Source: a virus
Taxonomy: Duplodnaviria > Heunggongvirae > Uroviricota > Caudoviricetes
DNA length: 64,000 nt
IMG/VR virus record: IMGVR_UViG_3300005918_000016
Reading direction: 5' to 3' (one strand)
The position numbers were made by a program, and so were the translations under genes. The notes beneath the pieces are model-generated. The model was not told the DNA's origin. It made no database searches and was given only the letters and a program-made list of their open reading frames with translations. Below are positions 4,063 to 63,631 of the stretch, piece after piece. Position 1 is the first letter of the stretch. Each line of letters starts with the position of its first letter.

Positions 4063-4090
4063 GGGTCAGCAGATGATCCCATTGCACGTA
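4063..4090 (-). promoter_or_regulatory. GGGATCATC-N13-GAGTAG promoter-like motif (minus-strand instance) with UTR hairpin at 4028-4045
   Basis: Plus strand reads CTACTC-N13-GATGATCCC; exact 13-nt spacer. Lies upstream of the DUF262 gene start at 4012. Confidence 0.55.
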
Positions 4091-4148
4091 AGGATCTAAG
4101 GAAGGTGTGTCCGAAACGGCCCTTGAGCAAAGACCCCCAGAACTTTTG

Positions 4149-4176
4149 TTGATCATCTCAGATTCCGTTGGAGTAG
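4149..4176 (+). promoter_or_regulatory. TTGATCATC-N13-GAGTAG promoter-like motif
   Basis: Exact 13-nt spacing. Hairpin CGGGGTGGACCCCCG and AAGGAG follow; ATG at 4237. Confidence 0.5.
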
Positions 4177-4236
4177 TGTGGGTAGCCTGAGGAAGGCTCA
4201 CTAACATCGGGGTGGACCCCCGAGAAGGAGAATGGG

Positions 4237-6150
4237 ATGGGGTTTCTTATCTGGATCCTGATGCTTACGGGCATCGGAGCGGTCGGTCTCGGCGTCTGGC
4301 TCATCGCAAGACGCAAAATCTGGATGCTGAAGACGTGGCGAAAGGTCACCCGCAAGGTCACGGACAAGGTCCAGATGATGGACCAACGGGTGACACAGAC
4401 AGACTTCGACGCTCAGGTGCAGGTCGAGATGGACGCTGCGGAGGCGAACGTACCGAAGGGCTTGGGCTTGTTGAGCATCCCGCTCTTCCTGTACGCCCTG
4501 TTGGCCATTTTCTTCAGTTCCATGATGGTGGACGTGCCGCAATCCGGGTTCATGGAACTGGAGCGGAACTTCGGTGGGGCTTCGATGCCCGCAGGCCAGA
4601 TCATCGCTACACAAGGCGAGAACGGCCCCCAGGCAGCGCTGCTGTCCCCCGGTCTCAAGTGGGTCATGCCCTTCATGTACTCCACGAATGAACGGGAGCC
4701 TGTGGTTATCCCGGACGGGATGATCGGCGTGATCACCACCAAGGCGGGCAAGTCCATGCCGGAGGGAATGATCTACGGCCCCAAGTTCACGGACTTCGAC
4801 GGTTTCCTCGACGCCCAGGTCTTCCTGGATCATGAGGACGGGTACAAGGGCCAACAGGTGACAGTGGCCCTGCCGGGAACGTGGAAGTTCCACTCAGGGG
4901 TGTACTCGATGACAGAGGCACCTATGACCAACGTGGAGATGGGCCATGTGATGGTCGTGAAGGCCAACTACGGCGATGTGCCCGAGGAGCGGGCAACCAT
5001 CGAGATCACGGATCTCGTGGAGAAGGAGATTGCCCTGTCCAAGGATGAACTGGAAGCGGCATATCTGGAGGCGGAAGACGCCGAGCAGCGACGGCTGCTG
5101 GCTGCGGGGGTGGCGGAGAAGGACATCAGGATCGACCGCAAGAGCTTGAAGGTGCGAAAGACCAAGATCGTGCTGGTGGAGGTCAAACGGAAGATCCCCG
5201 ACCCGCTGGTCGATGTGGGTGAGGCGGGCATCTGGCGTGATGCGCTGGTCCCCAACAAGTATCCAATGCATCCGTTCGCCCACGAGATGACGGATATCAA
5301 TACGATGCGCCTGCGAATCTCCTACACTCCGCCTGGTGAGGAAGGGGAAGACGACGGGCGGGTCATCGTCCGTAGCAAGGATGGGTACGAGTTCCCGATG
5401 GACATACGCATTGTGTACCATGTGGAACCAATGAACGCCCCTTGGGTCCGTGCAATGGTAGGTGACGACGAGAAGATCGGGGATGTCGTGATGACCCCTA
5501 CGGTCCTCTCAATCTCCCGTGTGCTGGCAGGTCGGTCCAACGTGCTGGACTTCTTCGCAGACCTGGAGGTCCGGCAGAAGGACGCTAAGGATCTCATCGC
5601 CAAGAAGTGCGCCGTGTACGGTGTGACGGTCGATGAGGTACTCATCGGGCGTGTGGGCGACGAGGCTTCCCTGGGTGAACTGATGAAAACCCAGCGGGAC
5701 CGTGAGATCGCCGTGCAGCAGCAGGTCACCTTCGCCGTACAGCAGAAGGCAGCGGAACAGCAGAAGCGGCTGAACAAGACGATGCAGGAGGCGGAGGAGG
5801 AGAAGAAGCTCGCCGCCGCTGCGTATCAGGCCCAGGTCGCCGTACAAAACAAGAAGAAGACCATCACCGACGCTGAGGCCGCTGCCGAGAAGGTGACGAT
5901 TGCAGCCACGGCTGAAGCCGAGCGGATCTTCAAGATCAAGAAGGCGGAAGCGGACGGCTACACCCTGAAGGTTGCCGCCCTTGGTCCCCAGGGGGTGGCA
6001 ATGCTGGAAGCCTTCCTGATCATCTCCGAGGGCAAGATCAAGATCACCCCGAACGTCGCAGTCAGCGGCGGAGGTGCCAACGGGGGCAACAACGCCTTCG
6101 AGGCACTGATGGCCATGATGCTCCAAGAGAAGGCCGGACCCGCCAATTAG
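4237..6150 (+). CDS. SPFH/band-7 flotillin-like membrane protein
   Basis: N-terminal TM helix. Long Ala/Glu/Lys/Gln-rich coiled-coil tail (AEAERIFKIKKAEADGY) typical of the flotillin C-terminus. Confidence 0.55.
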   Translation: MGFLIWILMLTGIGAVGLGVWLIARRKIWMLKTWRKVTRKVTDKVQMMDQRVTQTDFDAQVQVEMDAAEANVPKGLGLLSIPLFLYALLAIFFSSMMVDVPQSGFMELERNFGGASMPAGQIIATQGENGPQAALLSPGLKWVMPFMYSTNEREPVVIPDGMIGVITTKAGKSMPEGMIYGPKFTDFDGFLDAQVFLDHEDGYKGQQVTVALPGTWKFHSGVYSMTEAPMTNVEMGHVMVVKANYGDVPEERATIEITDLVEKEIALSKDELEAAYLEAEDAEQRRLLAAGVAEKDIRIDRKSLKVRKTKIVLVEVKRKIPDPLVDVGEAGIWRDALVPNKYPMHPFAHEMTDINTMRLRISYTPPGEEGEDDGRVIVRSKDGYEFPMDIRIVYHVEPMNAPWVRAMVGDDEKIGDVVMTPTVLSISRVLAGRSNVLDFFADLEVRQKDAKDLIAKKCAVYGVTVDEVLIGRVGDEASLGELMKTQRDREIAVQQQVTFAVQQKAAEQQKRLNKTMQEAEEEKKLAAAAYQAQVAVQNKKKTITDAEAAAEKVTIAATAEAERIFKIKKAEADGYTLKVAALGPQGVAMLEAFLIISEGKIKITPNVAVSGGGANGGNNAFEALMAMMLQEKAGPAN

Positions 6151-6158
6151 TCCCCTGC

Positions 6159-6185
6159 TGCCCCCTTCCCTACGGGGAGGGGGCG
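6159..6185 (+). terminator. GC-rich hairpin after the flotillin gene (possible intrinsic terminator without U-tract)
   Basis: CCCCCTTCCC-TAC-GGGGAGGGGG inverted repeat 10 nt after the stop codon. Confidence 0.3.
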
Positions 6186-6208
6186 GTCCCTGGTCAAGGA
6201 GACCCCTC

Positions 6209-6772
6209 ATGAGCCTCACACTAGAAGACCTCCAAGATCACAAGAAGGTCAGTTGGGATACCTTCCGTTCGGTGCCGCTCGGGTTGCACGAAGGGGAGGA
6301 ACTGGAGATCCGGTTCCTGCTGAACAAGGCTGGGGAGCACAAAATCGGCCTGTTTGACCCACGGCGCCACTGGTGGTCGGTGTGCTCATCCACTACGGAG
6401 GAAGCGGACGCAGTTGTCAGCTTCAACGCCATCCTTGGTGCCGTCCCTACCCCGCTGCAAAGGAAAACCATCACCTTCCAGTCTGAGGGGGACAGCAAAC
6501 CGGATTTCGAAAAGGGTGAGGATGAGGTCGTCAACTACCACCTCACCCTGTACGGCATGTTCGTTGGCAATCTCCGAGTCGGCAAATTCCAGGGTCAGGT
6601 AGAGCACTACGACACGATACTCTTCCCCGAATCAGCGCAGGACGATGCCGCCTATCAGATGCAGTACGGACAGCTTGTGCTCGCCTGTTACGAGTTCGTG
6701 CGGGGCCTCTACGACGCCCACGCTGCCGCTGCCCTTAGCCCCGTGGGATCATCTCCGGCACCCACAGAGTAG
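6209..6772 (+). CDS. hypothetical protein; C-terminus GSSPAPTE overlaps the promoter motif
   Basis: AAGGAG RBS. Stop TAG is the last 3 nt of GAGTAG. Confidence 0.5.
   Translation: MSLTLEDLQDHKKVSWDTFRSVPLGLHEGEELEIRFLLNKAGEHKIGLFDPRRHWWSVCSSTTEEADAVVSFNAILGAVPTPLQRKTITFQSEGDSKPDFEKGEDEVVNYHLTLYGMFVGNLRVGKFQGQVEHYDTILFPESAQDDAAYQMQYGQLVLACYEFVRGLYDAHAAAALSPVGSSPAPTE
6745..6772 (+). promoter_or_regulatory. GGGATCATC-N13-GAGTAG motif
   Basis: Exact consensus; GGAGGTG RBS and ATG at 6795 follow. Confidence 0.55.
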
Positions 6773-6794
6773 ACAGGGTGTATGGAGGTGGCAA

Positions 6795-6995
6795 ATGACC
6801 ACAGAACAGAGTCAGGCACTTCAAGGCGTACAGGGAAAAGTCATCAAAGACATAAAAGTCGGGGAGATGACCTCTTGGTGTGACAGCGGCGAGGTCCAGA
6901 TCCGGTGCAGCGACGGAACGATCATTCGGATCAGTACCATTGCCGATGCCGAGGACAACAGAGCCTTCCTCGCACTGTCCGTCACCGTGCGGTAG
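6795..6995 (+). CDS. hypothetical small protein (66 aa)
   Basis: Motif plus RBS upstream. Confidence 0.45.
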   Translation: MTTEQSQALQGVQGKVIKDIKVGEMTSWCDSGEVQIRCSDGTIIRISTIADAEDNRAFLALSVTVR

Positions 6996-7445
6996 TTGGG
7001 ACTCCGACAACCACCGGGGGTTATCATCGAAGCCCCACGTCCGTCCCTGTGCCTGCACCCGGACGATCATCCTTTATGGGAAACAATGGAACGGCTGGCT
7101 TGGGTTCTTGCGAACAGTCACGGTCTACCCCTCCATTTTGTAGAACCCAAACGTAGACCCCTGTCCGATGGAGCAGCGGGAGTATGCTATTGCCACGAGA
7201 GGCGTATTGCAATCCGGCTCCGGTGTAAGGATCGTGTAGAAGACGGCGGGGGGTGGTGGTCGAAGCCAGACCCCTGGGATCAGATCGTATTGACGGTTGC
7301 CCATGAGGTTGCCCACCTCCGACATCCCAATCACGGAGCAGACTTCAAGGACCTGGAACAACGCCTGTACCGAGAAGCTCAGGAACTGCTAGGGTGTTGG
7401 GATCATCCCCGGCACCCACAGAGTAGACAGGGTGAGGGGGAATGA
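6996..7445 (+). CDS. SprT-like zinc metallopeptidase (HEVAHLRHPNH); the true start is probably the ATG at 7086
   Basis: HExxH...H motif as in SprT/WLM-type domains. Confidence 0.5.
   Translation: MGLRQPPGVIIEAPRPSLCLHPDDHPLWETMERLAWVLANSHGLPLHFVEPKRRPLSDGAAGVCYCHERRIAIRLRCKDRVEDGGGWWSKPDPWDQIVLTVAHEVAHLRHPNHGADFKDLEQRLYREAQELLGCWDHPRHPQSRQGEGE
7399..7426 (+). promoter_or_regulatory. GGGATCATC-N13-GAGTAG motif with hairpin 7436-7450
   Basis: Exact consensus; GAGGAGG RBS; ATG at 7465. Confidence 0.55.
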
Positions 7446-7464
7446 CCCCCGAGGAGGATCTTAA

Positions 7465-8040
7465 ATGAGTGGCTACCCCACACGATATACTGCAGAAGGT
7501 TGTGACAGCCAATGTGTGTACCGTTCCTGTATGTGGCCGGGTGAGGACAAGGGGATCCTTGCCCAGGGCCGGGGCTACACTCGTTATCACAAGAAACCGC
7601 TCCCCGTCTGTATGCAGAGACATCTTCATGGGTGCCCCTATCTGAAACCCAAACCAGACGTTGAGAACGCCCGATGTTGTTACGCACCCAATTACAAACG
7701 TAAGGGCAAGGCTCCCTCAGGATGGCGTACCTGTGAGACCTGCGGAACAATGGTCCCCCTTCAGGTGGCCAAAGCACTTAACAACCTCCCAAAACGGGAT
7801 GGCGTTCCTTGCCTACATGAACAGGTAGAACCGTCCATCATAACTGGTTGGTTTGAGTGCCCCTCTTGTCGTTACAAGCATAAGGGTGTTTTCGATCATC
7901 GGCCTCTCCCCTTTGAGAAACCGAACAAAACACTGCAAGAACTGTATGACACCCTGGAGGTGCGACTTAACCAAACCGCAGAGAGTGAAATGACTCTTGA
8001 AGGCGGATCGGCGGGATCATCTCCCCGACCCACAGAGTAG
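7465..8040 (+). CDS. Cys-rich hypothetical protein; C-terminus GSSPRPTE
   Basis: Several CxxC pairs. Stop sits inside the next GAGTAG box. Confidence 0.5.
   Translation: MSGYPTRYTAEGCDSQCVYRSCMWPGEDKGILAQGRGYTRYHKKPLPVCMQRHLHGCPYLKPKPDVENARCCYAPNYKRKGKAPSGWRTCETCGTMVPLQVAKALNNLPKRDGVPCLHEQVEPSIITGWFECPSCRYKHKGVFDHRPLPFEKPNKTLQELYDTLEVRLNQTAESEMTLEGGSAGSSPRPTE
8013..8040 (+). promoter_or_regulatory. GGGATCATC-N13-GAGTAG motif with hairpin 8049-8065
   Basis: Exact consensus; GGGAGG; ATG at 8077. Confidence 0.55.
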
Positions 8041-8076
8041 TTAAGGTGAGGGGCAAATGACCCCTGGGAGGATGCG

Positions 8077-8331
8077 ATGACCCTGGAGCAACTGTTTGAC
8101 AAGCATGGGAACTGCCCGACCATGGGCGACCCCTACCGGAACAGCAACCCAACCACGGATCTGCTGTTCGATGAGTACGGGGATGTGCTGCCCACGGCCC
8201 TGGCCTTCCTGAGGCGGCTTGTTCAGGAACGGAAGGTGAAGCCGATGTGCGACGCCATCACGATCCTGATGGCTGACCGCTTCGCCTGCAACACGAAGTG
8301 CAACTATAACGCCATCACAATGTGGCGCTAG
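8077..8331 (+). CDS. hypothetical protein (84 aa)
   Basis: Motif plus RBS upstream. Confidence 0.45.
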   Translation: MTLEQLFDKHGNCPTMGDPYRNSNPTTDLLFDEYGDVLPTALAFLRRLVQERKVKPMCDAITILMADRFACNTKCNYNAITMWR

Positions 8332-8439
8332 GAGACCCAATGACGTTCCACAGTGGCATGACCCTGTTGTGCGCTGGGATGGCGGTTGCGGGCTTCGCCA
8401 CCCTGATCATCGGCAACTACCTGGAGAAGGGAGGCTGAT

Positions 8440-8664: not shown

Positions 8665-8700
8665 GGACATGTGGTCAACTTCTCAAAACCAGGAGTCCTG

Positions 8701-9968: not shown

Positions 9969-10003
9969 TGAAGGACGATCATCAACGGATACCTGAGAAG
10001 GAA

Positions 10004-10031
10004 GAGATCATCCTGGTGTCCGGTTGAGTAG
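10004..10031 (+). promoter_or_regulatory. GAGATCATC-N13-GAGTAG motif with hairpin 10040-10056
   Basis: 13-nt spacer; AAAGGAG; ATG at 10074. Confidence 0.5.
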
Positions 10032-10073
10032 TACAGGTGAGGGGCAAAGGACCCCTGACAAAGGAGCCCAACG

Positions 10074-10343: not shown

Positions 10344-10359
10344 ACGAAAAGGAGAGAGA

Positions 10360-11325: not shown

Positions 11326-11332
11326 GAAGGAA

Positions 11333-11360
11333 GGGATCATCTCACCACCCTGTTGAGTAG
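11333..11360 (+). promoter_or_regulatory. GGGATCATC-N13-GAGTAG motif with hairpin 11369-11385
   Basis: Exact consensus; GGGAGG; ATG at 11399. Confidence 0.55.
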
Positions 11361-11802: not shown

Positions 11803-11830
11803 GGGATCATCTCACCGACCTGCTGAGTAG
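11803..11830 (+). promoter_or_regulatory. GGGATCATC-N13-GAGTAG motif with hairpin 11839-11856
   Basis: Exact consensus; AAGGAG; ATG at 11875. Confidence 0.55.
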
Positions 11831-12510: not shown

Positions 12511-13531
12511 TAGTTTAGACCCCAGGATACCCCATCTAGCGGGTGTCCTGGGGGGCCTTATGTTATTAGGGGACGCTTGGTTTGTTGAACATTTCAGGAA
12601 AACCAGAAAACGGGGTAACACGATAGCTGGTCGTCAATGGACCTTGCGAGTAAAGCAAGAAAAACCTGTCCTGACAAAAATTTGTGACCGCTGTGGACAT
12701 AAAGAGATCACCTTATCGAGTCCATTATCTCGGGTTCGGCACGTGGTTAAACAAGCTGTAGAACAGGAACAGAAGTGGGGTCTGCATCTTTGCCCCAAAT
12801 GTGCTCGTAAGGAGGCACGCAAAAAGGCAGCTATTACGAGAGCAACGCCCGGATGGAGTGAGAACTTTGGTCGTCAAGTAGCTTTGGGTCTGGCTTTAAT
12901 ACCGTCAGACAAAAATGCAGAACGATATGAAAGAGCACGTCAAACCCGTATTGCCACCTATTCCCGCATGACACCGAAGGAACGACGCAGAGGTGTCGTC
13001 AAGCAATGGCAAACAATGACGGAGGAGGCTAAACAACGGAGAGCAAAAAAAATAGGCGAGGGTGCCAAAAAAGTTTGGGCCTCATTAACGCCAGAACAAA
13101 GAAACCAACGGGTTGCTCGGATGATCAAGGGGCTCCCTCGATCAAAGATATCGGATGATTTTCGACAACATCTGATAGATGCGAGATTGTATGCAGGCTT
13201 TGTAAGTGAACAAGTCATTTCAGGTTTCACCGTTGATGAGGCTAATGAGACCTTGAAAGTGATCCTTGAGTTCTTTGGGGACTACTATCATTGTAACCCG
13301 AGTAACCCCAAATTCTCAGACCCTGAGTTCTACAACACAACAATCCGAATGACATCGGCCCAAAAATGGCAGTATGATCGCCGTCGTTTAGCGGGACTCA
13401 GAAAAGTAGGGTACCGTATTCTAGTGGTATGGGAAAGTGACTGGCGTAAAAACCCTGAAGATGTGTTGAGCAGAGTGCGGACATTTCTGAATCAGTTTAA
13501 AACGGGATCATCTGCGGACCCCACAGAGTAG
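12434..13531 (+). CDS. free-standing putative homing endonuclease (LAGLIDADG-like HLAGVLGGLMLLGDA plus Vsr/PD-(D/E)xK-like C-terminal domain)
   Basis: Lies between the two intein halves in another frame. C-terminus GDYYHCNP...ILVVWESDW resembles Vsr-type endonuclease folds. Ends GSSADPTE inside a promoter motif. Confidence 0.5.
   Translation: MSRIKGGLKLKISRVKTCLTVPNNPDSLDPRIPHLAGVLGGLMLLGDAWFVEHFRKTRKRGNTIAGRQWTLRVKQEKPVLTKICDRCGHKEITLSSPLSRVRHVVKQAVEQEQKWGLHLCPKCARKEARKKAAITRATPGWSENFGRQVALGLALIPSDKNAERYERARQTRIATYSRMTPKERRRGVVKQWQTMTEEAKQRRAKKIGEGAKKVWASLTPEQRNQRVARMIKGLPRSKISDDFRQHLIDARLYAGFVSEQVISGFTVDEANETLKVILEFFGDYYHCNPSNPKFSDPEFYNTTIRMTSAQKWQYDRRRLAGLRKVGYRILVVWESDWRKNPEDVLSRVRTFLNQFKTGSSADPTE
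13504..13531 (+). promoter_or_regulatory. GGGATCATC-N13-GAGTAG motif located inside the fractured ligase locus
   Basis: Exact consensus; GAGG; ATG at 13563. Confidence 0.55.
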
Positions 13532-15430: not shown

Positions 15431-16051
15431 ATGGGTGAGGTCGTACCAGGACCAGGGACGCTTCAGTTTGCGCTGGACAGCATAAATGATCCGGTGTTGC
15501 AAAAGGTTAAGGACCAGCAGCCCCTCACCCCTGAAGACCAAAATCATCTGAGGGAAAAGATGGGGCTTCCTGGTCCTGAGCATGTGCCTTGGGGTCATGG
15601 CCCCTGGAAACGGGACGACCCGGATATGCTCGCCCTTGATTATTTGAAGGACACTACGGTTTTTGGCTCCTGTGATAAGGAGACAGATGAATACCTGGAG
15701 AACACAATCTGGGAGTGGTACCGAGGTGTGAGACTCGCATTCCAAGAGTGTGGGTGCCAAAACTGCATGCAGATTGGAGAGGCAAAAACGATGACAGCGC
15801 CCGCTGCAATTGCCCGTGGTGAAAGGCACTACGCAGCCGTAATGAACAAACGCCTGCCACGGGGGTGGAGAAAACAGCCTAAAGTGCTGGCCCTCATTGC
15901 CAAGTTTGACCAGGAACTGAAGGCAGCAGGCAACGATCTCATGCGGACGGCACGGGGGGACAACTACGCTGGGGATACAGCACCTGAGGCAACCGGGCCA
16001 ATCGGAAAGGAATGGACCCTTCGGGAATGGCCTCGGGAGTACAGTTGGTGA
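15431..16051 (+). CDS. hypothetical protein, paralog of 16725-17348
   Basis: Shares GPGTLQFA...CGCxNC...ARGERxxAxxMNK...GWRKxPxVLAxI with the downstream paralog. Confidence 0.5.
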   Translation: MGEVVPGPGTLQFALDSINDPVLQKVKDQQPLTPEDQNHLREKMGLPGPEHVPWGHGPWKRDDPDMLALDYLKDTTVFGSCDKETDEYLENTIWEWYRGVRLAFQECGCQNCMQIGEAKTMTAPAAIARGERHYAAVMNKRLPRGWRKQPKVLALIAKFDQELKAAGNDLMRTARGDNYAGDTAPEATGPIGKEWTLREWPREYSW

Positions 16052-16662
16052 TGAACACTGAGGCTACAAACGTCACCAGCCAGTGGTTGGGACAGAACTG
16101 GCAGACCTTTCAGGAAGCGGGACATTACGGTCTCCGTACCTGGGCGGTGCCCATCCCTTCAAGTGATGTGGAGGACGTGATCCAGGACACGGCCATACAA
16201 TTCATTCATGTCGATGCTCTTCGCTTCTTCATTCACCGGGAAGGGGAGGAACTGAAAAGCTCTCTGACCTTAGACCGACTAGGTCTGTTTATAGCCCGTA
16301 AGGCCATCAAGTGGCTCCAACGAGCCGGTCAAGACGTAGTTCCCCGTAGCAGCCTGGGGGCACAGACAAAATGGGAGTGGCAAGGCAAAACCACAGCACC
16401 ACAGCCGCCCACATCGTATGAAGTGGACCCGTCGAACAGCCAATGGACAGCGGGTTGTCAAATGGAGCTTGTGGAGTCCGTTTGCACTCAGATCTTTCCG
16501 GACAACGCTGAACGGTACGTGGCTATCATCAAACGAAGGGTTGAAGGTTACAGCCAGACTGAGATAGCCGCAGAGTTCGGTTCTACTAAGGGTCGGATCG
16601 GTCGTGTTCTCCAGCGTGTTCGTCGGGAGTTTCAGCCCTTCCGGGAGGCCCTTTGCAGTTGA
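16051..16662 (+). CDS. ECF-type sigma-70 family factor (regions 2 and 4)
   Basis: DVEDVIQDTAIQFI resembles ECF region 2. C-terminal RRVEGYSQTEIAAEFGSTKGRIGRVLQRVRREF resembles the region 4.2 HTH. ATGA overlap with the upstream stop. Confidence 0.55.
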   Translation: MNTEATNVTSQWLGQNWQTFQEAGHYGLRTWAVPIPSSDVEDVIQDTAIQFIHVDALRFFIHREGEELKSSLTLDRLGLFIARKAIKWLQRAGQDVVPRSSLGAQTKWEWQGKTTAPQPPTSYEVDPSNSQWTAGCQMELVESVCTQIFPDNAERYVAIIKRRVEGYSQTEIAAEFGSTKGRIGRVLQRVRREFQPFREALCS

Positions 16663-16663: not shown

Positions 16664-16691
16664 GGGATCATCTGTGGCGGCGGCAGAGTAG
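16664..16691 (+). promoter_or_regulatory. GGGATCATC-N13-GAGTAG motif
   Basis: Exact consensus; GAGGA; ATG at 16725. Confidence 0.55.
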
Positions 16692-17903: not shown

Positions 17904-18394
17904 GCCAGGAAAAGTGGACGCCGGAAACAGTCAAAACCTTCCGAGAGAAACGTGGCCTCAATCAACATGCCCTCGGTGTCCTCATGGGGTACGTGGGTCA
18001 GCGTTCTACCACGATGGCACACAGTGAGCAGAGGCTCCCGGACGGGACACCCCGCCGCTCCCTGACGATTGCGGACAGGGTTCGCCTGGACTACCTCCAG
18101 CAGTTGCCCCTCCCTGAGTTGTATGCACTACTGAGGGACAACGATGCTGATCCCAAGGACAATGCCAAGTGGGTCCAGATCAGCATCTGGGAGTATGAGT
18201 TCCGTGAGCGGGGCGAAGTCAAAGCGGAGTGTTGCCCCATTATGCAGGACGACGGGTCGCTGATGTGGGGTGTGCGGGTACTGCCCATGACATTCCCCTT
18301 CGAGGAAATACGCCTGTATCGCATACTACGGAGCGCCAAGTGCTCCGTTCAGGGGACGGCAGAGGAAACCTCGGATCATCCTGTGTGCCTGTAG
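17900..18394 (+). CDS. HTH (XRE-like) domain protein
   Basis: TVKTFREKRGLNQHALGVLMG helix-turn-helix; ATGA overlap. Confidence 0.45.
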   Translation: MSQEKWTPETVKTFREKRGLNQHALGVLMGYVGQRSTTMAHSEQRLPDGTPRRSLTIADRVRLDYLQQLPLPELYALLRDNDADPKDNAKWVQISIWEYEFRERGEVKAECCPIMQDDGSLMWGVRVLPMTFPFEEIRLYRILRSAKCSVQGTAEETSDHPVCL

Positions 18395-18400
18395 GAGTAG
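18372..18400 (+). promoter_or_regulatory. CGGATCATC-N14-GAGTAG motif variant
   Basis: 14-nt spacer; AAGGAGAC; ATG at 18449. Confidence 0.4.
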
Positions 18401-24761: not shown

Positions 24762-25065
24762 GGAACAGCAGATGGTTGCCGTTCTCGTCGCTGCTGGTAC
24801 GTCCGCCTACGGGGACGACAGCAAACTGACTGATACCGCTCGTGACTGGCTCTCCGCAAGGTTTTCCCCCGAGGACACACAGTTCTGGTTGGAAGCTGGC
24901 TGCTGGGATGTCAAGGTCGCCAGGGCCTTCAAGGACGCTGACCTGGACTCCGAGGACGTAGAGTTCGAAACTGCCAAGCCCACCAAGAGCACGATTGCCC
25001 ATAAGGTCTGCGCCGGGGAGATATCCCTGAACGCCGCCATCCGCATCGCCAAGAGCCGCCAGTAG
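24754..25065 (+). CDS. hypothetical protein
   Basis: RBS AGGAG. Confidence 0.4.
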   Translation: MLEEQQMVAVLVAAGTSAYGDDSKLTDTARDWLSARFSPEDTQFWLEAGCWDVKVARAFKDADLDSEDVEFETAKPTKSTIAHKVCAGEISLNAAIRIAKSRQ

Positions 25066-25090
25066 ATCATCGACCTAGCTGTGCGAGTAG
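25063..25090 (+). promoter_or_regulatory. TAGATCATC-N13-GAGTAG motif
   Basis: Exact spacing; AGGAGG; ATG at 25112. Confidence 0.5.
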
Positions 25091-28291: not shown

Positions 28292-28662
28292 GCCTCCTCG
28301 AAACACTCCAGAACGTAGACTGCGCCACGCCGTGCCTGAAGTGTGGTCGCCACCTTGAATGGAACAGGCACGCCCACCATGTGGAGGGCAATGACTTGGT
28401 CCTGGGTTGCCCCGACTGTAGTAAAGGGACGGAAGGCCTCCCCTGCCATCACCGTACTGTTCTGGGGGCAACTCCGCCGAGAGATCCTCGGAAGATCATC
28501 CTCGGACATTCGGGAGTAGACCCTGTGAGGAGGAAGGATGGGCAGGTTGCTTCAGTTCGAAGATGGTGTACTCCGCAGGAAACTCCAAGAGTTGCTCATC
28601 AGCGTCGACCGGCTCGACTTCAAATTCCTCCGTTTCTTCACCATTTGTGTCGGGTGTGGTAA
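28288..28662 (+). CDS. Cys-rich zinc-ribbon protein (TTG start; 3' end overlaps the next gene, extent uncertain)
   Basis: CLKCGRH...CPDC. Confidence 0.3.
   Translation: MSLLETLQNVDCATPCLKCGRHLEWNRHAHHVEGNDLVLGCPDCSKGTEGLPCHHRTVLGATPPRDPRKIILGHSGVDPVRRKDGQVASVRRWCTPQETPRVAHQRRPARLQIPPFLHHLCRVW
28492..28519 (+). promoter_or_regulatory. AAGATCATC-N13-GAGTAG motif
   Basis: 13-nt spacer; GAGGAGGAAGG; ATG at 28538. Confidence 0.5.
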
Positions 28663-32601: not shown

Positions 32602-32629
32602 GAGATTATCGGTGCCTCTGTCTGAGTAG
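32602..32629 (+). promoter_or_regulatory. GAGATTATC-N13-GAGTAG motif variant
   Basis: 13-nt spacer; AGGAGG; ATG at 32647. Confidence 0.45.
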
Positions 32630-35960: not shown

Positions 35961-35988
35961 GGGATCATCCTGGCCAGTGGCTGAGTAG
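35961..35988 (+). promoter_or_regulatory. GGGATCATC-N13-GAGTAG motif
   Basis: Exact consensus; AAGGAG; ATG at 36027. Confidence 0.55.
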
Positions 35989-37660: not shown

Positions 37661-37870
37661 ATGCCCGGACACGACTGCCACTTCCTGACCTATAGGGTAG
37701 AACTCAACTACGACACGAAACGCTGGGAGGTGAAGCACGCTTCAGGTTACGTTGTAGCCGACACCCGGACCCGCAACGAGGCCCTCCTGATCCGGCGACG
37801 GTTGCGGGCCATCCAGGTTGACATCACAGACACCTTGCAAAGAGGGTCATCCGAGGCATCCTTAGAGTAG
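37661..37870 (+). CDS. hypothetical protein
   Basis: ORF. Confidence 0.4.
   Translation: MPGHDCHFLTYRVELNYDTKRWEVKHASGYVVADTRTRNEALLIRRRLRAIQVDITDTLQRGSSEASLE
37844..37870 (+). promoter_or_regulatory. GGGTCATCC-N12-GAGTAG motif variant
   Basis: 12-nt spacer; AAGGAG; ATG at 37919. Confidence 0.4.
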
Positions 37871-37918: not shown

Positions 37919-38134
37919 ATGACAGACGCAACAAAGAAGACCCGCATCGTGATCAGTACAGGCGGTCTGCACTGCGGAAAGTACGAACCATCTGAGGAGA
38001 CACTCAGGAAACTTAAGGGAGTCATCGTGGATGCAGTGGGGAAACAACTGAGGGGTGAGGCTGGTCCCAGCGAACCCTGGCCCTTTGACCCGGTCCTTCC
38101 CATCAAGGGATCATCTGAGGACTCCGCAGAGTAG
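37919..38134 (+). CDS. hypothetical protein; C-terminus GSSEDSAE overlaps the next motif
   Basis: RBS plus motif. Confidence 0.45.
   Translation: MTDATKKTRIVISTGGLHCGKYEPSEETLRKLKGVIVDAVGKQLRGEAGPSEPWPFDPVLPIKGSSEDSAE
38107..38134 (+). promoter_or_regulatory. GGGATCATC-N13-GAGTAG motif
   Basis: Exact consensus; GGAGGA; GTG at 38174. Confidence 0.55.
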
Positions 38135-39984: not shown

Positions 39985-40012
39985 GGGATCATCTCGTCAG
40001 GCGGCAGAGTAG
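39985..40012 (+). promoter_or_regulatory. GGGATCATC-N13-GAGTAG motif
   Basis: Exact consensus; AGGAGG; ATG at 40034. Confidence 0.55.
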
Positions 40013-41691: not shown

Positions 41692-42018
41692 ATGAGGTGG
41701 CCCTGGCAATGGTTCAGGCGAGAGCCCTGCGAAGTTCACAGCTACGGGCTTGAGAAACGACTCGCCCTGGCCCCCCGAACGTCACTAGCCCCAGCCTGGA
41801 CCAGGAGGTACCCCCACACAAGGCACTTCCTGGTCTGGTTTGACCAGTCCATCTGTCAACGGTGCGGACACCGACCCTTTGCTGTGGTGCGGAAGGTGGC
41901 GGCAGCAAATGCCCTAGAATATGCTGGGTACATACATTCCCGCAGGTACCAGAGGGCTGGCTGGTTGGACCTGGGCAAACAGCCCAAAGATCATCCGAGT
42001 CCCCGCCTGAGTAGATGA
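41692..42018 (+). CDS. Cys-containing hypothetical protein
   Basis: ORF. Confidence 0.35.
   Translation: MRWPWQWFRREPCEVHSYGLEKRLALAPRTSLAPAWTRRYPHTRHFLVWFDQSICQRCGHRPFAVVRKVAAANALEYAGYIHSRRYQRAGWLDLGKQPKDHPSPRLSR
41987..42014 (+). promoter_or_regulatory. AAGATCATC-N13-GAGTAG motif
   Basis: 13-nt spacer; AGGAGG; ATG at 42035. Confidence 0.5.
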
Positions 42019-47546: not shown

Positions 47547-47574
47547 GAGATCATCAAGGGTGCGATTGGAGTAG
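47547..47574 (+). promoter_or_regulatory. GAGATCATC-N13-GAGTAG motif
   Basis: 13-nt spacer; AAGGAGAG; ATG at 47611. Confidence 0.5.
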
Positions 47575-52028: not shown

Positions 52029-52056
52029 GAGATCATTCAGGGCACCAGCCGAGTAG
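52029..52056 (+). promoter_or_regulatory. GAGATCATT-N13-GAGTAG motif variant
   Basis: 13-nt spacer. A 12-codon mini-ORF comes first, then the ATG at 52120. Confidence 0.4.
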
Positions 52057-56072: not shown

Positions 56073-56100
56073 GGGATCATCTGTGACACCACCAGAGTAG
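56073..56100 (+). promoter_or_regulatory. GGGATCATC-N13-GAGTAG motif
   Basis: Exact consensus; AGGAGG; ATG at 56120. Confidence 0.55.
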
Positions 56101-58433: not shown

Positions 58434-58461
58434 TGGATCATCTGACACCGTCAGGGAGTAG
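58434..58461 (+). promoter_or_regulatory. TGGATCATC-N13-GAGTAG motif
   Basis: 13-nt spacer; AGGAGG; ATG at 58482. Confidence 0.5.
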
Positions 58462-61085: not shown

Positions 61086-61113
61086 TGGATCATCTGCTGC
61101 CGCCAGGGAGTAG
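61086..61113 (+). promoter_or_regulatory. TGGATCATC-N13-GAGTAG motif
   Basis: 13-nt spacer; AGGAGG; ATG at 61136. Confidence 0.5.
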
Positions 61114-61135: not shown

Positions 61136-62833
61136 ATGAAACACCCGACCAGGAAACAAGTCAGGGCCTTCCAGCCCGAGTACGCTGAGTGGCTCCAGCA
61201 GATGGGCGTGGCCCCAAGGCGGATCAGAGCGAACACCCTGTGCCTTGACATGCTGCTCCGAGAAACACACTCGCCCTTTAACGAAAAAACCGTGGCCCTC
61301 GCTGTCATACAAACGACAGGCATAGGCCTTCAAGAAGCTTGGGCCACGTCCCAATTCAGCTTCCTGGCCTTCTGGAAGGACAAGACCGGACCCACTCCGG
61401 GTGACTTCCAGTCCCACAAGACCCGATTTTACAGTTGGTTACAACACGGGGACGACCCCAACGTACAGCGTTATAGCGAGCGGGTCACCACCGATACAAT
61501 GTATGCCCTTACGGGGCTGTCCCACAAGGGCAAATCGTTCCGGTCCTGTGACCTGGAAGAGACCCTCAACCGTTCCGGGCACTACAGGTTGGCCTGGAAG
61601 CGTTTCCTGAAGTTCTGGGACACCATCGACCAGCCCCCACTGGAACCCCCGGCAACGTCCCAACCGGCACCTCCGGCCCCCGTGAAGGCCCCGGAGCAGG
61701 CGGACACCTCCCTCCCTCCTCTGACCCGGTACAACGTCCTGAAAAACCTGACACGGTACAACAGGTGGCTGCAGGTGGCTGACGGGTTCGACACCACCAA
61801 CCTCCCCGCACGGCAATGGGCCATGGCGAGGATCCTTCGCCTGTGTCACTCCGAAAATATGGATGACCTCCCCCAGATCCTTGTAGAAAACGGCGACCTC
61901 CACGCTGTGTGGCACGGCATCGATTTCGGCTTCCTCACCTTCTGGGCGTTTCAGTATGGACCCAAGGACGCCTCCGAGGGGTCCACGGACCAGCCGAAAC
62001 CCCCCACCATGACCGAAGCCCTGGATGTCCTGGACGACTACGAGCGGTGGCTGAGGGTCTGCCACGGGTGGCGTCACAGCGCTGTAAGGGGACGATATCG
62101 GACCATGATGCTGGGCCTCAGCCGGTGCCAATCCGAAGACCTGTCCGACCTGTACCAGTTTACGAAAACGGACGACGCCTTCCACACGGCGTGGCACGGC
62201 ATCGATTTCGGCTTCCTCACCTACTGGAATCTCCGGCACGAGAAGGTCCAGATCCCGAAGACTCCCGTTACACCAATGGGCGTGTGGGAACAGTGCCTGC
62301 GCTCCGTGTTTCAAGCACTCAGCCCTGGCACCTTCCCCCCTAGCGACCCCCGCAAGTTGGCCGACACCATCAACAAGACCTGGGGGGAGACCCACGAACT
62401 GCTGTCCAAACTGCTCACCAAGGCAGGCGTCACGACCAAGATCATGACGGCCACCGACGCCCTCCATGCCCTTCTGGTGGTATGGCCGGAACCCGAGCAT
62501 CCCGAGACCGAGCCTACCCCGAGCGACGTGGCACACGACAGGGAGAACGAATCTACCAGGATGCCCACCAAGATTGATGTCAAAAGGGCGGTGGGGGACT
62601 ATCAGGCATGGCTGAAGGACATCCAGGGACTGAATACCACGGCAATCTGGGAATGCACCGTGGATCTCCAAGGGAGCGTCTGCGCCTGCTGCTCCCACGA
62701 TCTGGAAGATCTCCCCAGGATCAAGAGCGAACACAAGCCGTTCAAGGAAGCCTGGGACGGCCCCAATGGCTTCATGGCCTTCTGGAATGATCGCCGCCGG
62801 ACCCCAAAAGCGATCAAGAAAACGCCCCCGTAG
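61136..62833 (+). CDS. 565-aa tandem integrase-N/SAM-like repeat protein (>=5 repeats)
   Basis: Repeated ...Y..WL...(H/D)G..FGFL(T/A)(F/Y)W. Confidence 0.5.
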   Translation: MKHPTRKQVRAFQPEYAEWLQQMGVAPRRIRANTLCLDMLLRETHSPFNEKTVALAVIQTTGIGLQEAWATSQFSFLAFWKDKTGPTPGDFQSHKTRFYSWLQHGDDPNVQRYSERVTTDTMYALTGLSHKGKSFRSCDLEETLNRSGHYRLAWKRFLKFWDTIDQPPLEPPATSQPAPPAPVKAPEQADTSLPPLTRYNVLKNLTRYNRWLQVADGFDTTNLPARQWAMARILRLCHSENMDDLPQILVENGDLHAVWHGIDFGFLTFWAFQYGPKDASEGSTDQPKPPTMTEALDVLDDYERWLRVCHGWRHSAVRGRYRTMMLGLSRCQSEDLSDLYQFTKTDDAFHTAWHGIDFGFLTYWNLRHEKVQIPKTPVTPMGVWEQCLRSVFQALSPGTFPPSDPRKLADTINKTWGETHELLSKLLTKAGVTTKIMTATDALHALLVVWPEPEHPETEPTPSDVAHDRENESTRMPTKIDVKRAVGDYQAWLKDIQGLNTTAIWECTVDLQGSVCACCSHDLEDLPRIKSEHKPFKEAWDGPNGFMAFWNDRRRTPKAIKKTPP

Positions 62834-62841
62834 CAGTCGTC

Positions 62842-63303
62842 GTGTGGGAGAACACCTACCGGGACAACTGGGAAGGTTGGCACATGGCCCGGAAGATGCT
62901 GACCAGATACGAGGGGTGGCTCTCCTACCACGACGAACTGCGACCCTACATCAACTGGATCGACCAAGGCAAAGACCTGCCCCGACTCTCGGTCGTTACA
63001 ACCTACCCAAACCCAAGGATCGGGACGCTGAAGACCCAGGGGCGCAATGTCCCCGTCCTGAGTCATACCACGAGTAAAGACGGAGACCACCATCGCATCC
63101 ACCTGAGGACACGTCTGTGCCCCGGCACATGGCCCAGCTATGTCAATGAAAAGTTCAATGCCACGCTGACCATAGGAAACCAGCAGTGGGAAGGCCCATG
63201 GCGGGCCTACGAGGACTATGACACACCCTACAGCAACACCATCCGGTTAGACCCACCTACACAAAAGGCGTTAGGAATAGAACACCCCAGCCAGCCCACC
63301 TAA
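62842..63303 (+). CDS. hypothetical protein (start GTG at 62842 or ATG at 62884)
   Basis: ORF. Confidence 0.35.
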   Translation: MWENTYRDNWEGWHMARKMLTRYEGWLSYHDELRPYINWIDQGKDLPRLSVVTTYPNPRIGTLKTQGRNVPVLSHTTSKDGDHHRIHLRTRLCPGTWPSYVNEKFNATLTIGNQQWEGPWRAYEDYDTPYSNTIRLDPPTQKALGIEHPSQPT

Positions 63304-63605
63304 GCCCCCCACCTAAGCCCCTTCACCCCAATAAGGATACACAACCCGCAGAAGGACCAGAAACGCCCACACAAGGCCACGTGGGATCCCCTAAAAGCAT
63401 ATACAGCCAGTGTACCCAATCCCCTAGAACGTAAGACCACATGACAACAACCACAAAGTGATCGGAAATAGCCACTGAAGGCCACATGGGGGTTTATAGG
63501 GACGTATCCCTGACAATTCCAGCGATAGCCGGAACCGTCCCTGATAGGTCGGGCAATCGTTATAGAGGAAAAACCGGCAAAGTCCCTCCTTTTCACACCG
63601 TTTTC

Positions 63606-63631
63606 TTGACACCCCAACGCCCAAGGAGTAG
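63606..63631 (+). promoter_or_regulatory. TTGACA-N14-GAGTAG variant of the element motif, followed by hairpin CCCCAG-ACT-CTGGGG
   Basis: Same -35-like to GAGTAG spacing as GATCAT-N14-GAGTAG. Confidence 0.3.

What the first reader, a model, noticed from the sequence alone, without database searches (positions are those of the whole stretch)
4063..63631. Recurrent gene-upstream motif GGGATCATC-N13-GAGTAG (27 copies), a candidate element-specific promoter
I counted 27 instances. Eighteen have an exact 13-nt spacer, and one copy is on the minus strand at 4063-4090. In almost every case the GAGTAG lies 12-45 nt upstream of a start codon with a GGAGG-type RBS in between. The first box is constant in GATCAT; the second is invariant. 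The geometry is GGATC-N16-GAGTAG, which does not fit sigma70 (17 nt between hexamers) but does fit ECF-type promoters (GGAAC-N16/17 to -10). The TAG of GAGTAG doubles as the stop codon of the upstream gene in at least four cases (C-termini GSSPAPTE*, GSSPRPTE*, GSSADPTE*, GSSEDSAE*). The same DNA is read in different frames at different sites, so the conservation is at the nucleic-acid level, not the protein level. Partial GAGTAG-only copies occur at 1165, 20781, 25751, 32980, 39683 and 45201.
Basis: seen in the sequence. Interest (0 to 1): 0.8.

Follow-up and report, generated by a model that had tools for sequence, protein, structure and literature searches.

The report
Huge-phage promoter motif with candidate sigma
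The repeated two-box sequence is real and is most likely the phage's own promoter, used at about 24 gene starts in this stretch of a 528-kb Antarctic "huge phage" and probably read by a very divergent sigma factor that the phage encodes; it is a new example of a known viral strategy.

Summary
GGGATCATC-N13-GAGTAG occurs 23 times at up to 2 mismatches (0.12 expected), and one more copy has a 14-nt spacer. All 24 copies point toward the next gene, 17-63 nt before its start codon. The window is part of the 528,258-bp Ace Lake huge phage.

It behaves as a DNA-level promoter:
- It has two invariant boxes with a variable spacer of fixed length, plus a conserved GT-purine 5-7 nt downstream.
- No RNA structure is conserved across the sites.
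- Pairs sit back to back, only 11-40 bp apart, at divergent genes.
- Copies lie directly upstream of tRNA genes.

The geometry fits a sigma70-family promoter: GGGATC-N17-AGTAGA-N6-purine.

ORF 16012-16662 is a divergent two-domain sigma-like protein. It scores below the curated HMM cut-offs, but all top fold matches are sigma factors. It lies in an operon headed by the motif.

Its rare homologues occur in other huge phages. Each carries its own motif in the same register: cTGCTTAG-N14-(G/C)AGTAG and aGGCTTAC-N14-GCGTAGAT. The GTAG core is kept while the upstream box differs.

Transposon (TnpB) genes in the same window use canonical TTGACA-N17-TAAAGT promoters instead.

Transcription start sites and the sigma-promoter pairing remain untested. 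Verdict: a new member of a known kind, of moderate interest.

The parts
4053..4080 (-). Promoter copy (perfect), 40 nt before the GmrSD_N-like gene 3425-4012; back to back with 4149-4176
4149..4176 (+). Promoter copy (TTGATCATC), 60 nt before the Band_7 gene 4237-6150
6745..6772 (+). Promoter copy (perfect); its TAG is the stop codon of 6209-6772; 22 nt before 6795
7399..7426 (+). Promoter copy (perfect), followed by the 5' stem-loop 7434-7450
8013..8040 (+). Promoter copy (perfect); its TAG is the stop codon of 7465-8040; stem-loop at 8048-8065
10004..10031 (+). Promoter copy; stem-loop at 10039-10056
11333..11360 (+). Promoter copy (perfect); stem-loop at 11368-11385
11803..11830 (+). Promoter copy (perfect); stem-loop at 11838-11856
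13504..13531 (+). Promoter copy (perfect) heading the operon of NAD-ligase, a 208-aa ORF and the sigma-like gene; its TAG is the stop codon of 12560-13531
16012..16662 (+). Candidate cognate specificity factor: a divergent two-domain sigma70-family (ECF-like) protein of 216 aa (203 aa if it starts at 16051)
16664..16691 (+). Promoter copy (perfect), starting 2 nt after the sigma gene's stop codon; 33 nt before 16725
18372..18400 (+). Promoter copy with a 14-nt spacer (CGGATCATC-N14-GAGTAG), before 18449
25063..25090 (+). Promoter copy (TAGATCATC); the weakest PWM score among the full copies; 21 nt before 25112
28492..28519 (+). Promoter copy; the Shine-Dalgarno sequence starts 8 nt after GAGTAG
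32602..32629 (+). Promoter copy (GAGATTATC), 17 nt before 32647
35961..35988 (+). Promoter copy (perfect); weaker stem-loop at 35996-36010
37843..37870 (+). Promoter copy (AGGGTCATC); its TAG is the stop codon of 37661-37870
38107..38134 (+). Promoter copy (perfect); its TAG is the stop codon of 37919-38134
39985..40012 (+). Promoter copy (perfect), 21 nt before 40034
41987..42014 (+). Promoter copy overlapping the 3' end of 41692-42018 in a different reading frame
47547..47574 (+). Promoter copy at a divergent junction, 36 nt before 47611
52029..52056 (+). Promoter copy (GAGATCATT), 63 nt before 52120
56073..56100 (+). Promoter copy (perfect), 19 nt before 56120
58434..58461 (+). Promoter copy, 20 nt before the 863-aa gene 58482-61073
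61086..61113 (+). Promoter copy, 22 nt before the 565-aa gene 61136-62833
4028..4045 (-). 5'-proximal stem-loop GAGGGG-CAAATGA-CCCCT, 7 nt after GAGTAG. This is a subset feature; the other copies are listed with their promoters above.

Best explanation
The motif is the main promoter of a 528-kb huge phage from Ace Lake, Antarctica. It is a bipartite sigma70-family-type promoter. The -35-like box is GGGATC(ATC) and the -10-like box is (G)AGTAG(A/T). If the hexamers are taken as GGGATC and AGTAGA, the spacer is 17 nt. Transcription is predicted to start at the conserved purine 8-9 nt after GAGTAG, which is preceded by a conserved G-T.

Inferred mechanism: the host's core RNA polymerase is redirected to these sites by the phage's own divergent, ECF-like sigma protein (ORF 16012-16662). 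That gene sits in an operon headed by the same motif, which would give positive feedback. In a subset of units the transcript begins with a small conserved stem-loop (GAGGGG-CAAAUGA-CCCCU). In others the Shine-Dalgarno sequence starts almost at the 5' end.

Shown here:
- the motif and its positional rules;
- its conservation in relatives;
- its contrast with canonical promoters in the same DNA;
- the sigma-like nature of the protein.

Inferred, not shown:
- that transcription starts there;
- that this particular protein reads the motif.

I put about 0.85 on 'it is a promoter' and about 0.6 on the full statement including the sigma assignment.
For: 1. **Enrichment and position.** There are 23 copies against 0.12 expected. 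All 24 copies are co-oriented with the next gene, 17-63 nt before its start, against 4.2% of random windows.
2. **Anatomy of a protein-DNA site.** Two invariant boxes are separated by a fixed-length spacer of variable sequence. Flanks upstream of box 1 are unconserved. An A/T at +1 and G-T-purine at +6 to +8 after GAGTAG are conserved. RNAalifold finds 0 conserved pairs over 23 sites.
3. **Back-to-back pairs.** At divergent genes the two box-1 copies are only 11-40 bp apart in other parts of the phage (L006, L054, L020, L067, L068, L074) and 15 bp apart in L106. That leaves no room for another promoter upstream.
4. **tRNA genes.** Copies lie 21 nt and 67 nt upstream of tRNA genes in a relative (L042) and 66 nt upstream of tRNA-Ile in L008/L009. 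The motif is therefore a transcription signal, not a translation signal.
5. **Conservation.** The same motif occurs at 3.8-5.9 copies per 10 kb in a phage whose ligase region is only about 66% identical at the DNA level.
6. **No other promoter class is enriched.** Sigma70-consensus promoters are not enriched: 6 found against 6.8 expected. TnpB transposon copies in the same window do carry canonical TTGACA-N17-TAAA(G/A)T.
7. **Not a bacterial motif.** The motif is at chance level in 185,579 bacterial and archaeal genomes: 43 single hits, none with a second copy in the DNA held around the hit (up to 8 kb).
8. **The sigma-like protein.**
   - A profile of its family hits ECF sigma factors in the PDB (SigE, SigR region 4; E about 3e-3), with a collinear weak region-2 match.
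   - Seven of 8 family members hit TIGR02937 sigma70-ECF (best E 3.9e-9).
   - For the AlphaFold model (pLDDT 74.7), all 50 top Foldseek hits are sigma factors, aligned over about 190-290 columns.
9. **Co-occurrence and co-variation.** The sigma family is rare: 15 hits among 1.84 billion representatives.
   - A 40%-identical homologue has AGATCATC-N13-GAGTAG directly upstream of its gene.
   - A phage with homologues about 30% identical uses TGCTTAG-N14-(G/C)AGTAG (7 copies, 0.14 expected).
   - A 418-kb phage with a homologue about 24% identical uses GGCTTAC-N14-GCGTAGA (9 copies, 0 expected).
   - In all of them box 2 keeps GTAG, the register is the same, box 1 differs, and in the three phages with long contigs the sigma gene is in a motif-headed operon.
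10. **Known parallel.** phiEco32 gp36 promoters have AATGTA centred at -11.5 (PMC12276001). Aligning the shared GTA places +1 on the conserved purine here.
Against: - There are no transcription-start or RNA data.
- The sigma-like protein is below the curated cut-offs of every sigma HMM: Pfam Sigma70_r4_2 19.3 bits against 25.7, and TIGR02937 23.4 against 42.9. Its N-terminal sigma-2 domain is supported only weakly.
- Global TM-scores are low (0.2-0.3), although that is expected for two flexibly linked domains.
- The link between this protein and the motif rests on co-occurrence in three lineages. In L102 there are two paralogues, so the pairing cannot be assigned there.
- P0002 shares box 1 with the window although its predicted recognition helix differs.
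- If the sigma needs its own promoter, something else must start the loop, and that step was not identified.
- I saw only about one eighth of the genome plus scattered loci. Other sigma factors or a phage RNA polymerase elsewhere are not excluded.
- 14 of 34 intergenic gaps of at least 45 nt have no full motif.
Confidence: 0.6

Rival explanations
1. It is a promoter, but it is read by something other than the 16012-16662 protein: a host alternative sigma factor, another phage sigma encoded elsewhere in the 528-kb genome, or a phage-encoded RNA polymerase.
For: - All the promoter evidence applies equally.
- The sigma-like protein is sub-threshold in curated HMMs.
- Only part of the genome was examined.
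- The autoregulatory layout needs an unexplained first step.
Against: - The -35/-10-like layout with a fixed spacer is typical of sigma-dependent holoenzymes. By my recollection, not tested here, it is unlike T7-type (contiguous), N4-type (hairpin) or phiKZ/AR9-type (short -10-like only) promoters.
- Box 1 changes between phage lineages in step with divergence of this sigma family.
- The motif is at chance level in bacterial genomes, so it is not a known host regulon.
- Only one gene of this sigma family was found in the Ace Lake phage DNA I held.
Confidence: 0.25
2. It is the binding site of a phage repressor or other DNA-binding regulator. The model is the oriented 'stoperators' of Cluster A mycobacteriophages, where sites oriented with transcription block or modulate it rather than start it.
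For: There are about 24 oriented copies in short intergenic gaps, some overlapping stop codons. Superficially this resembles stoperators (comparison from my own knowledge).
Against: - No other recurrent promoter exists to drive these genes.
- The copies stand at the head of every strand switch that has one, and back to back 11-40 bp apart.
- The distance to the conserved purine and to the ribosome-binding site is fixed.
- Copies precede tRNA genes.
- The two-box geometry matches -35/-10 spacing.
Confidence: 0.06
3. It acts in the RNA, as an RNase processing site, mRNA stabiliser or translation enhancer in polycistronic transcripts.
For: It is strand-specific and lies just upstream of ribosome-binding sites. 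A subset is followed by a conserved stem-loop.
Against: - There is no conserved base pairing across the 23 sites.
- A variable 13-nt spacer of fixed length is characteristic of duplex-DNA recognition.
- The motif occurs before tRNA genes.
- Divergent pairs 11 bp apart would require each transcript to start inside the other's motif.
- There are no Rfam matches.
Confidence: 0.05
4. It is a small mobile repeat (MITE-like) that spread by transposition and has no positional function.
For: - Some copies share similar spacers (for example 6745, 7399, 8013, 13504), and a subset shares a cassette of about 55 bp including the stem-loop. This suggests spread by duplication or recombination.
- True miniature TnpB-derived elements do exist in the window.
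Against: - There are no terminal inverted repeats and no target duplications.
- Nothing is conserved upstream of box 1.
- Spacer sequences are mostly different.
- Co-orientation and distance to start codons are strict.
- The motif is conserved in distant relatives at non-homologous genes.
Confidence: 0.02

Closest known systems
Phage-encoded sigma factors with their own promoter class, best documented structurally for E. coli phage phiEco32 gp36 (PMC12276001). Bacillus phage SPO1 gp28 and gp33/34 and T4 gp55 are recalled from my own knowledge.
   Same: - A small two-domain sigma-like protein encoded by the phage.
- A phage-specific consensus unlike the host's TTGACA/TATAAT.
- A GTA-containing -10-like element (AATGTA in phiEco32).
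- Contacts at both -10 and -35.
- Host-type promoters left for a minority of genes.
   Different: - There is no detectable sequence homology to gp36. The family here is an orphan with 15 detectable relatives.
- This promoter has a strongly conserved 9-bp upstream box, whereas the consensus reported for phiEco32 covers only the -10 region.
- The sigma gene is itself behind the motif.
- No gp79-like partner was identified.
- Nothing has been tested biochemically.
Bacterial ECF (group 4) sigma factors and their autoregulated promoters
   Same: - About 200 aa, with sigma-2 and sigma-4 domains only.
- The best sequence and fold matches are ECF sigma factors.
- The gene lies in an operon preceded by its presumed target promoter.
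- The -10 core (C/A)GTA resembles the ECF 'CGT' signature, most clearly GCGTAGA in L106 (signature recalled from memory).
   Different: - It is below the curated family thresholds.
- The -35 box lacks the ECF 'AAC' signature.
- No anti-sigma partner was recognised.
- Here the motif drives a large share of a viral genome rather than a small stress regulon.
PeSLs, the composite promoter/stem-loop cassettes of T4-like phages (PMC2839356, PMC4122927)
   Same: Short conserved promoter-containing cassettes with a stem-loop recur before many small genes of unknown function (7 window copies). A similar promoter-plus-stem-loop arrangement is seen in the L106 phage.
   Different: - PeSLs use host sigma70 early promoters and are described as terminator/promoter composites.
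- Here the stem-loop lies downstream of the predicted start and has no T-tract.
- A role in recombination was not tested.
Stoperators of Cluster A mycobacteriophages and start-associated sequences of Cluster K (recalled from my own knowledge; PMC3203893 appeared only as a search hit for the latter)
   Same: Dozens of oriented, phage-specific short motifs in intergenic gaps close to gene starts or stops.
   Different: Those are single 13-bp blocks, bound by a repressor or overlapping the ribosome-binding site. This motif has two boxes with promoter spacing, precedes tRNA genes, and occurs back to back at divergent genes.

Membership tests
Sigma70-family bipartite promoter | Two conserved boxes separated by about 16-18 bp of variable sequence | tested here: met
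   GGGATC-N17-AGTAGA (equivalently GGGATCATC-N13-GAGTAG). 23 of 24 copies have the same spacer length.
Sigma70-family bipartite promoter | Located upstream of transcription units and co-oriented with them, including non-coding RNA genes | tested here: met
   All 24 copies are co-oriented, 17-63 nt from the start codon. Copies precede tRNA genes. Divergent back-to-back pairs occur.
Sigma70-family bipartite promoter | Transcription initiates about 6-8 nt downstream of the -10 element | not testable with these tools
   The only evidence is a conserved G-T-purine at the expected place. There are no RNA data.
Sigma70-family bipartite promoter | Bound and melted by an RNAP holoenzyme carrying a specific sigma factor | not testable with these tools
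   This needs biochemistry or a reporter assay.
ECF / group 4 sigma factor (ORF 16012-16662) | Passes the curated sigma-domain HMM thresholds | tested here: not met
   Pfam Sigma70_r4_2 scores 19.3 bits against 25.7, and Sigma70_ECF 16.4 against 21.1. TIGR02937 scores 23.4 against 42.9.
ECF / group 4 sigma factor (ORF 16012-16662) | Two-domain sigma-2 plus sigma-4 fold of about 200 aa | tested here: inconclusive
ECF / group 4 sigma factor (ORF 16012-16662) | Own operon preceded by the target promoter (autoregulation) | tested here: met
   The copy at 13504 heads the ligase-ORF-sigma operon. The same layout is seen in L100, L102 and L106.
ECF / group 4 sigma factor (ORF 16012-16662) | Promoter signature with -35 'AAC' and -10 'CGT' (as I recall it) | tested here: not met
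   Box 1 has no AAC. Box 2 is AGTA here and CGTA only in L106.
ECF / group 4 sigma factor (ORF 16012-16662) | Adjacent anti-sigma factor | tested here: inconclusive
   The gene is flanked by two paralogous genes of about 207 aa with no known domains. They show no homology to the neighbours of the homologues in other phages.
Phage-specific sigma/promoter system (phiEco32 gp36-like) | A phage-encoded sigma-like protein plus a promoter consensus distinct from host-type promoters in the same genome | tested here: met
   See the sigma evidence above. Canonical TTGACA-N17-TAAA(G/A)T is restricted to TnpB elements and a few other genes.
Phage-specific sigma/promoter system (phiEco32 gp36-like) | Sequence homology to gp36 or to other characterised phage sigma factors | tested here: not met
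   tblastn against 50,697 phage records found no match. Only structural similarity was found.
MITE / transposed repeat | Terminal inverted repeats, target-site duplications, and conserved ends beyond the core | tested here: not met
   There is no conservation upstream of box 1, and spacers vary. Positional constraint is strict.
Structured RNA element | Conserved base pairing with covariation | tested here: not met
   0 predicted pairs over 23 sites. No Rfam family matches.
PeSL-type promoter/stem-loop cassette | Promoter joined to a stem-loop, recurring before small genes of unknown function | tested here: met
   Stem-loops start 7 nt after GAGTAG at 7 window copies and 1 copy just beyond the window end.
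PeSL-type promoter/stem-loop cassette | Mediates recombination or indels between related genomes | not tested
   No comparison of indel end-points was made.

The most novel reading that the evidence does not exclude
A previously unrecognised, phage-only clade of minimal sigma factors runs most of the transcription programme of several huge phages (400-530 kb). Each member is autocatalytically expressed from its own promoter class. The -10 core (GTAG) is kept while the -35 specificity has diversified between lineages (GGGATCAT, TGCTTAG, GGCTTAC). That would amount to a natural set of orthogonal sigma/promoter pairs, and the promoter-plus-stem-loop cassettes might also serve as recombination modules.
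Probability: 0.35. Interest if true: 0.6.

Novelty: new member of a known kind. Interest (0 to 1): 0.45.

Why it matters
Huge phages are known almost only from metagenomes, and how they organise transcription of 500+ genes is essentially unstudied.

This motif gives a ready transcription-unit map for this region of the 528-kb Ace Lake phage. It also offers a concrete, cheap-to-test pairing of an orphan sigma-like protein with a 28-bp promoter. Three natural variants of that pairing exist in related phages.

If the pairing is confirmed, it would:
- add a new sigma lineage;
- show how -35 specificity evolves while -10 recognition is kept;
- supply orthogonal parts for synthetic biology.

It would not change the general picture that phages redirect host RNA polymerase with their own sigma factors.

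Tried and rejected
- **Close relatives in GenBank phages.** Megablast of 20 kb found no match. tblastn with the sigma-like protein found none either.
- **Word-indexed protein search.** It found only the protein itself. The full HMMER scan was needed to find relatives.
- **Structure prediction without an alignment.** The single-sequence AlphaFold model was useless (pLDDT 38.6). The 8-sequence alignment gave 74.7.
- **Fetching more relatives.** The search for related loci with the alignment failed because no stretch was conserved enough. With P0002 it found nothing.
- **Rfam.** No hits on the window and the downstream flank.
- **Canonical signals.** Sigma70 consensus promoters and intrinsic terminators are not enriched in 1-20000.
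- **Conserved partner next to the sigma gene.** No homology was found between the neighbours in different phages.
- **Temporal class of motif-driven genes.** Pfam and PHROGs on 20 proteins from other loci gave replication, repair, tRNA-processing and defence-related functions: Cas3-like helicase, RtcB, Thg1, PARP-like, RIIA-like and GroEL. No structural genes were recognised, so early versus late use is undetermined.
- **GATC in box 1.** GATC is not unusual in the window (400 observed, 418 expected from trinucleotides), and it is absent from the relatives' box 1. A Dam-methylation role is therefore not supported.
- **A leader peptide starting at the AUG in the stem-loop.** Rejected, because several loops lack an AUG.
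- **GAGTAG-only sites as a second promoter class.** Their number is not above chance.
- **Literature.** I found nothing on this motif or on promoters of this phage.

Full report
**Origin of the window.**
- The NAD-ligase protein of the window (13563-15428) is encoded, identically, on JGI contig 3300025697 Ga0208769_1000001 (528,260 bp). Window position 1 corresponds to about contig position 340,105.
- This contig is the largest terminally redundant viral contig found by the CheckV authors. It is a 528,258-bp 'huge phage' from Ace Lake, Antarctica (PMC8116208).
- No GenBank phage is close. Neither paper, nor any paper I could find, discusses its promoters.

- GGGATCATC-N13-GAGTAG at up to 2 mismatches gives 23 hits against 0.12 expected. 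One more copy has a 14-nt spacer. Twelve copies are perfect.
- A matrix built from 26 copies, including three just past the window end, shows gGGATCATCt, a C-rich but variable spacer, invariant GAGTAG, then A/T. Five nucleotides later comes G-T-purine. Nothing is conserved upstream of box 1.
- Using the gene calls attached to the public contig, every copy points at the next gene. GAGTAG ends 17-63 nt before the start codon, and a GGAGG-type ribosome-binding site lies between them. Only 4.2% of random windows satisfy that.
- 16 of 24 copies lie wholly in the 7.2% of 28-bp windows that are non-coding.
- Five copies supply the stop codon of the upstream gene, all in one frame (GSS...E*).
- The 'GAGTAG-only' copies are real, but there are no more of them than chance predicts.

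**Why it is a DNA-level promoter.**
1. Two invariant blocks about two helical turns apart, with a spacer fixed in length but free in sequence, are typical of protein recognition of duplex DNA. RNAalifold finds no conserved pair over 23 sites, and Rfam finds nothing.
2. Copies occur back to back at divergent gene pairs. In the window the two box-1 copies are 68 bp apart (4053-4080 minus, 4149-4176 plus). In other parts of the phage they are only 11, 38 or 40 bp apart, and in a related phage 15 bp apart. No other promoter would fit upstream of them.
3. Copies stand 21 and 67 nt upstream of tRNA genes in a relative, and 66 nt upstream of a tRNA-Ile about 7 kb upstream of this window. The signal therefore serves transcription, not translation.
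4. Sigma70-consensus promoters are not enriched (6 found, 6.8 expected), nor are intrinsic terminators. Of 34 intergenic gaps of at least 45 nt, 20 hold the motif.
5. The few clear canonical promoters (TTGACA-N17-TAAAGT or TAAAAT) belong to TnpB transposon genes and their miniature derivatives. Whatever polymerase form reads canonical promoters in this host, the phage's own genes use something else.
6. The motif is at chance level in one genome for each of 185,579 bacterial and archaeal species: 43 single hits, none with a second copy nearby.

**Geometry.**
- Read as GGGATC, 17 nt, AGTAGA, 6 nt, purine, the motif has the standard -35/-10/+1 layout. The conserved T-purine forms the usual pyrimidine(-1)/purine(+1) pair.
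- In phiEco32, promoters read by the phage sigma gp36 carry AATGTA centred at -11.5 (PMC12276001). Aligning the shared GTA puts +1 on the same purine.
- The predicted start is thus 8-9 nt after GAGTAG. In seven window copies the transcript would open with a stem-loop, GAGGGG-CAAAUGA-CCCCU, of -8 to -13 kcal/mol. That is not exceptional against shuffles. In others the Shine-Dalgarno sequence begins at about +1 to +3.

**The candidate reader of the motif.**
- ORF 16012-16662 gave only a sub-threshold Sigma70_r4_2 hit, and the indexed search found no homologues.
- A full HMMER scan of 1.84 billion representatives found 15 hits. Seven of these (P0002-P0007 and P0011) align along most of the protein, at about 21-40% identity.
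- Their profile hits ECF sigma factors in the PDB (E about 3e-3 over region 4), with a weak collinear match to region 2.1 (the ...ED..Q[DE]T... helix).
- Seven of eight members hit TIGR02937 sigma70-ECF.
- With the alignment, AlphaFold gives pLDDT 74.7. All 50 best Foldseek matches are sigma factors aligned over nearly the whole length.
- I therefore accept it as a divergent sigma70-family protein. Sigma-4 is well supported and sigma-2 only plausibly. It fails every curated threshold, so I do not file it as a certified ECF member.

**Linking protein and motif.**
- The sigma gene is the third gene of an operon headed by the perfect copy at 13504. Another copy starts 2 nt after its stop codon.
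- A 40%-identical homologue on a different contig has AGATCATC-N13-GAGTAG-N5-GT-AGGAGG immediately upstream of its gene.
- A 50-kb contig with two paralogues about 30% identical shows TGCTTAG-N14-(G/C)AGT(A/G)G seven times, all co-oriented with the genes, against 0.14 expected. One copy heads a sigma operon, and two supply stop codons.
- A 417,917-bp scaffold with a homologue about 24% identical shows GGCTTAC-N14-GCGTAGA nine times against 0 expected. These include a divergent pair and a copy before its NAD-ligase, and they are again followed by small stem-loops.
- In all three systems box 1 starts 21-22 nt before box 2. Box 2 keeps GTAG. Box 1 differs but keeps a G-T-A skeleton.
- This is the pattern expected if a conserved sigma-2 reads the -10 box and a diverging sigma-4 reads the -35 box. 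It is correlation across three lineages, not proof.
- Two further homologue contigs (L104, L108) were too short or too unclear to define a motif.
- An HMM of the family finds only one copy in all the Ace Lake phage DNA I hold.

**Spread.** The exact motif recurs on many IMG/VR contigs from Ace Lake samples, at 1.6-5 copies per 10 kb. It also occurs at 3.8-5.9 per 10 kb on two contigs of a phage whose ligase region is only about 66% identical in DNA. It drives genes for a Cas3-like helicase, RtcB, Thg1, a PARP-like protein and others. I could not identify structural genes, so the temporal class is open.

**Open problems.**
- No RNA data exist.
- If the sigma depends on its own promoter, the first molecules must come from elsewhere: packaging in the virion, read-through, or a weak host-type promoter such as the 10/12 match at 13349-13378. 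None of these was tested.
- Other sigma factors or a phage polymerase may be encoded in the seven eighths of the genome I could not read.

**Verdict.** This is a real, strongly non-random, phage-specific promoter class with a credible but unproven cognate sigma. It belongs to the well-known strategy of phage-encoded sigma factors, in a new and very divergent lineage from uncultivated huge phages.

Noticed in passing
whole window (single CGCG at 26187); loci L034, L020, L067, L013; contrast with L031, L070, L024 and L106: The tetranucleotide CGCG is almost absent from this phage: 1 copy in 64 kb against about 146 expected from trinucleotide frequencies, and 0-2 per 14 kb in other Ace Lake loci. 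It is normal in the related 3300037047 phage (55-78 per 12-15 kb). The L106 phage instead lacks GCGC completely (0 in 20.6 kb). This looks like lineage-specific avoidance of a host restriction site.
   Followed up: partly
window 33429-35491 (+), 49559-51280 (-), 54106-55649 (-); miniature copies at 2140-2497 (+), 19520-19874 (-); extension 66983-67335: There are several IS607-type elements (serine resolvase plus TnpB). There are also internally deleted miniature copies, in which the promoter and 5' end are fused to the last 73 codons and the 3' flank; these had been called as 75-aa genes. All carry a canonical TTGACA-N17-TAAA(G/A)T promoter, unlike the phage's own genes.
   Followed up: partly
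window 4028-4045 (-), 7434-7450, 8048-8065, 10039-10056, 11368-11385, 11838-11856, 35996-36010: A conserved small stem-loop, GAGGGG-CAAATGA-CCCCT, starts 7 nt after GAGTAG at a subset of promoters. Its loop sequence is also conserved. Comparable stem-loops follow the promoters of the L106 phage. Its function is unknown; possibilities include 5'-end stabilisation, a protein-binding site, or a recombination cassette like the PeSLs.
   Followed up: partly
window 15425-16051 and 16725-17348: The sigma-like gene is flanked on both sides by paralogous genes of about 207 aa (43% identical), with no known domains and several conserved cysteines. They could be partners or regulators of the sigma. No homologues were found next to the sigma genes of the other phages.
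   Followed up: partly
window 23180 and 55809 upstream regions: A few non-transposon genes have canonical-looking promoters instead of the motif: TTGACA-N17-TACCAT before the HTH_17 gene at 23180, and TTGACT-N17-CACAAT before 55809. They are candidates for host-polymerase (early or regulatory) transcription.
   Followed up: no
L099 16318-16345 (= window coordinate 64799-64826, past the window end) and 66929-66956: A perfect motif copy is followed by 419 nt without a called gene. Another copy is followed directly by a miniature TnpB-derived element. These could be non-coding transcripts or an insertion into a transcription unit.
   Followed up: no
window 48967-48994: A degenerate copy (TAGGTCATC-N13-GAGTAG, with GT downstream) lies inside the called gene 48919-49467. 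It is followed by a ribosome-binding site and an ATG at about 49018. This is either an internal promoter or a mis-called gene.
   Followed up: no
window 3425-4012 (-), 4237-6150, 21623-22390, 9468-9968: Genes with a defence or counter-defence flavour: a GmrSD_N-like gene, a Band_7/SPFH protein, an anti-Pycsar Apyc1-like metallo-beta-lactamase-fold protein, and an RNase H (precomputed Pfam hits).
   Followed up: no
window 25790-28060, 45246-46682, 58482-61073, 61136-62833: Four large genes without Pfam domains are distant paralogues of one another (22-30% identity). The last two are adjacent, and each has its own motif copy.
   Followed up: no
L042, L059, L022, L089 (IMGVR_UViG_3300037047_000216); L030, L076, L033, L036: The related phage and the Ace Lake phage carry large tRNA arrays: 18 tRNA genes in 8.6 kb of L042. 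The relative also carries a tmRNA gene (L059 6204-6572).
   Followed up: no
L102 10001-10633 and 15416-16054: One related phage carries two paralogous sigma-like genes 5 kb apart. The second follows an N6/N4 methylase and an RNA ligase, the same arrangement as in L101. Two sigma factors may mean two promoter sub-classes (GAGTAG versus CAGTAG).
   Followed up: no
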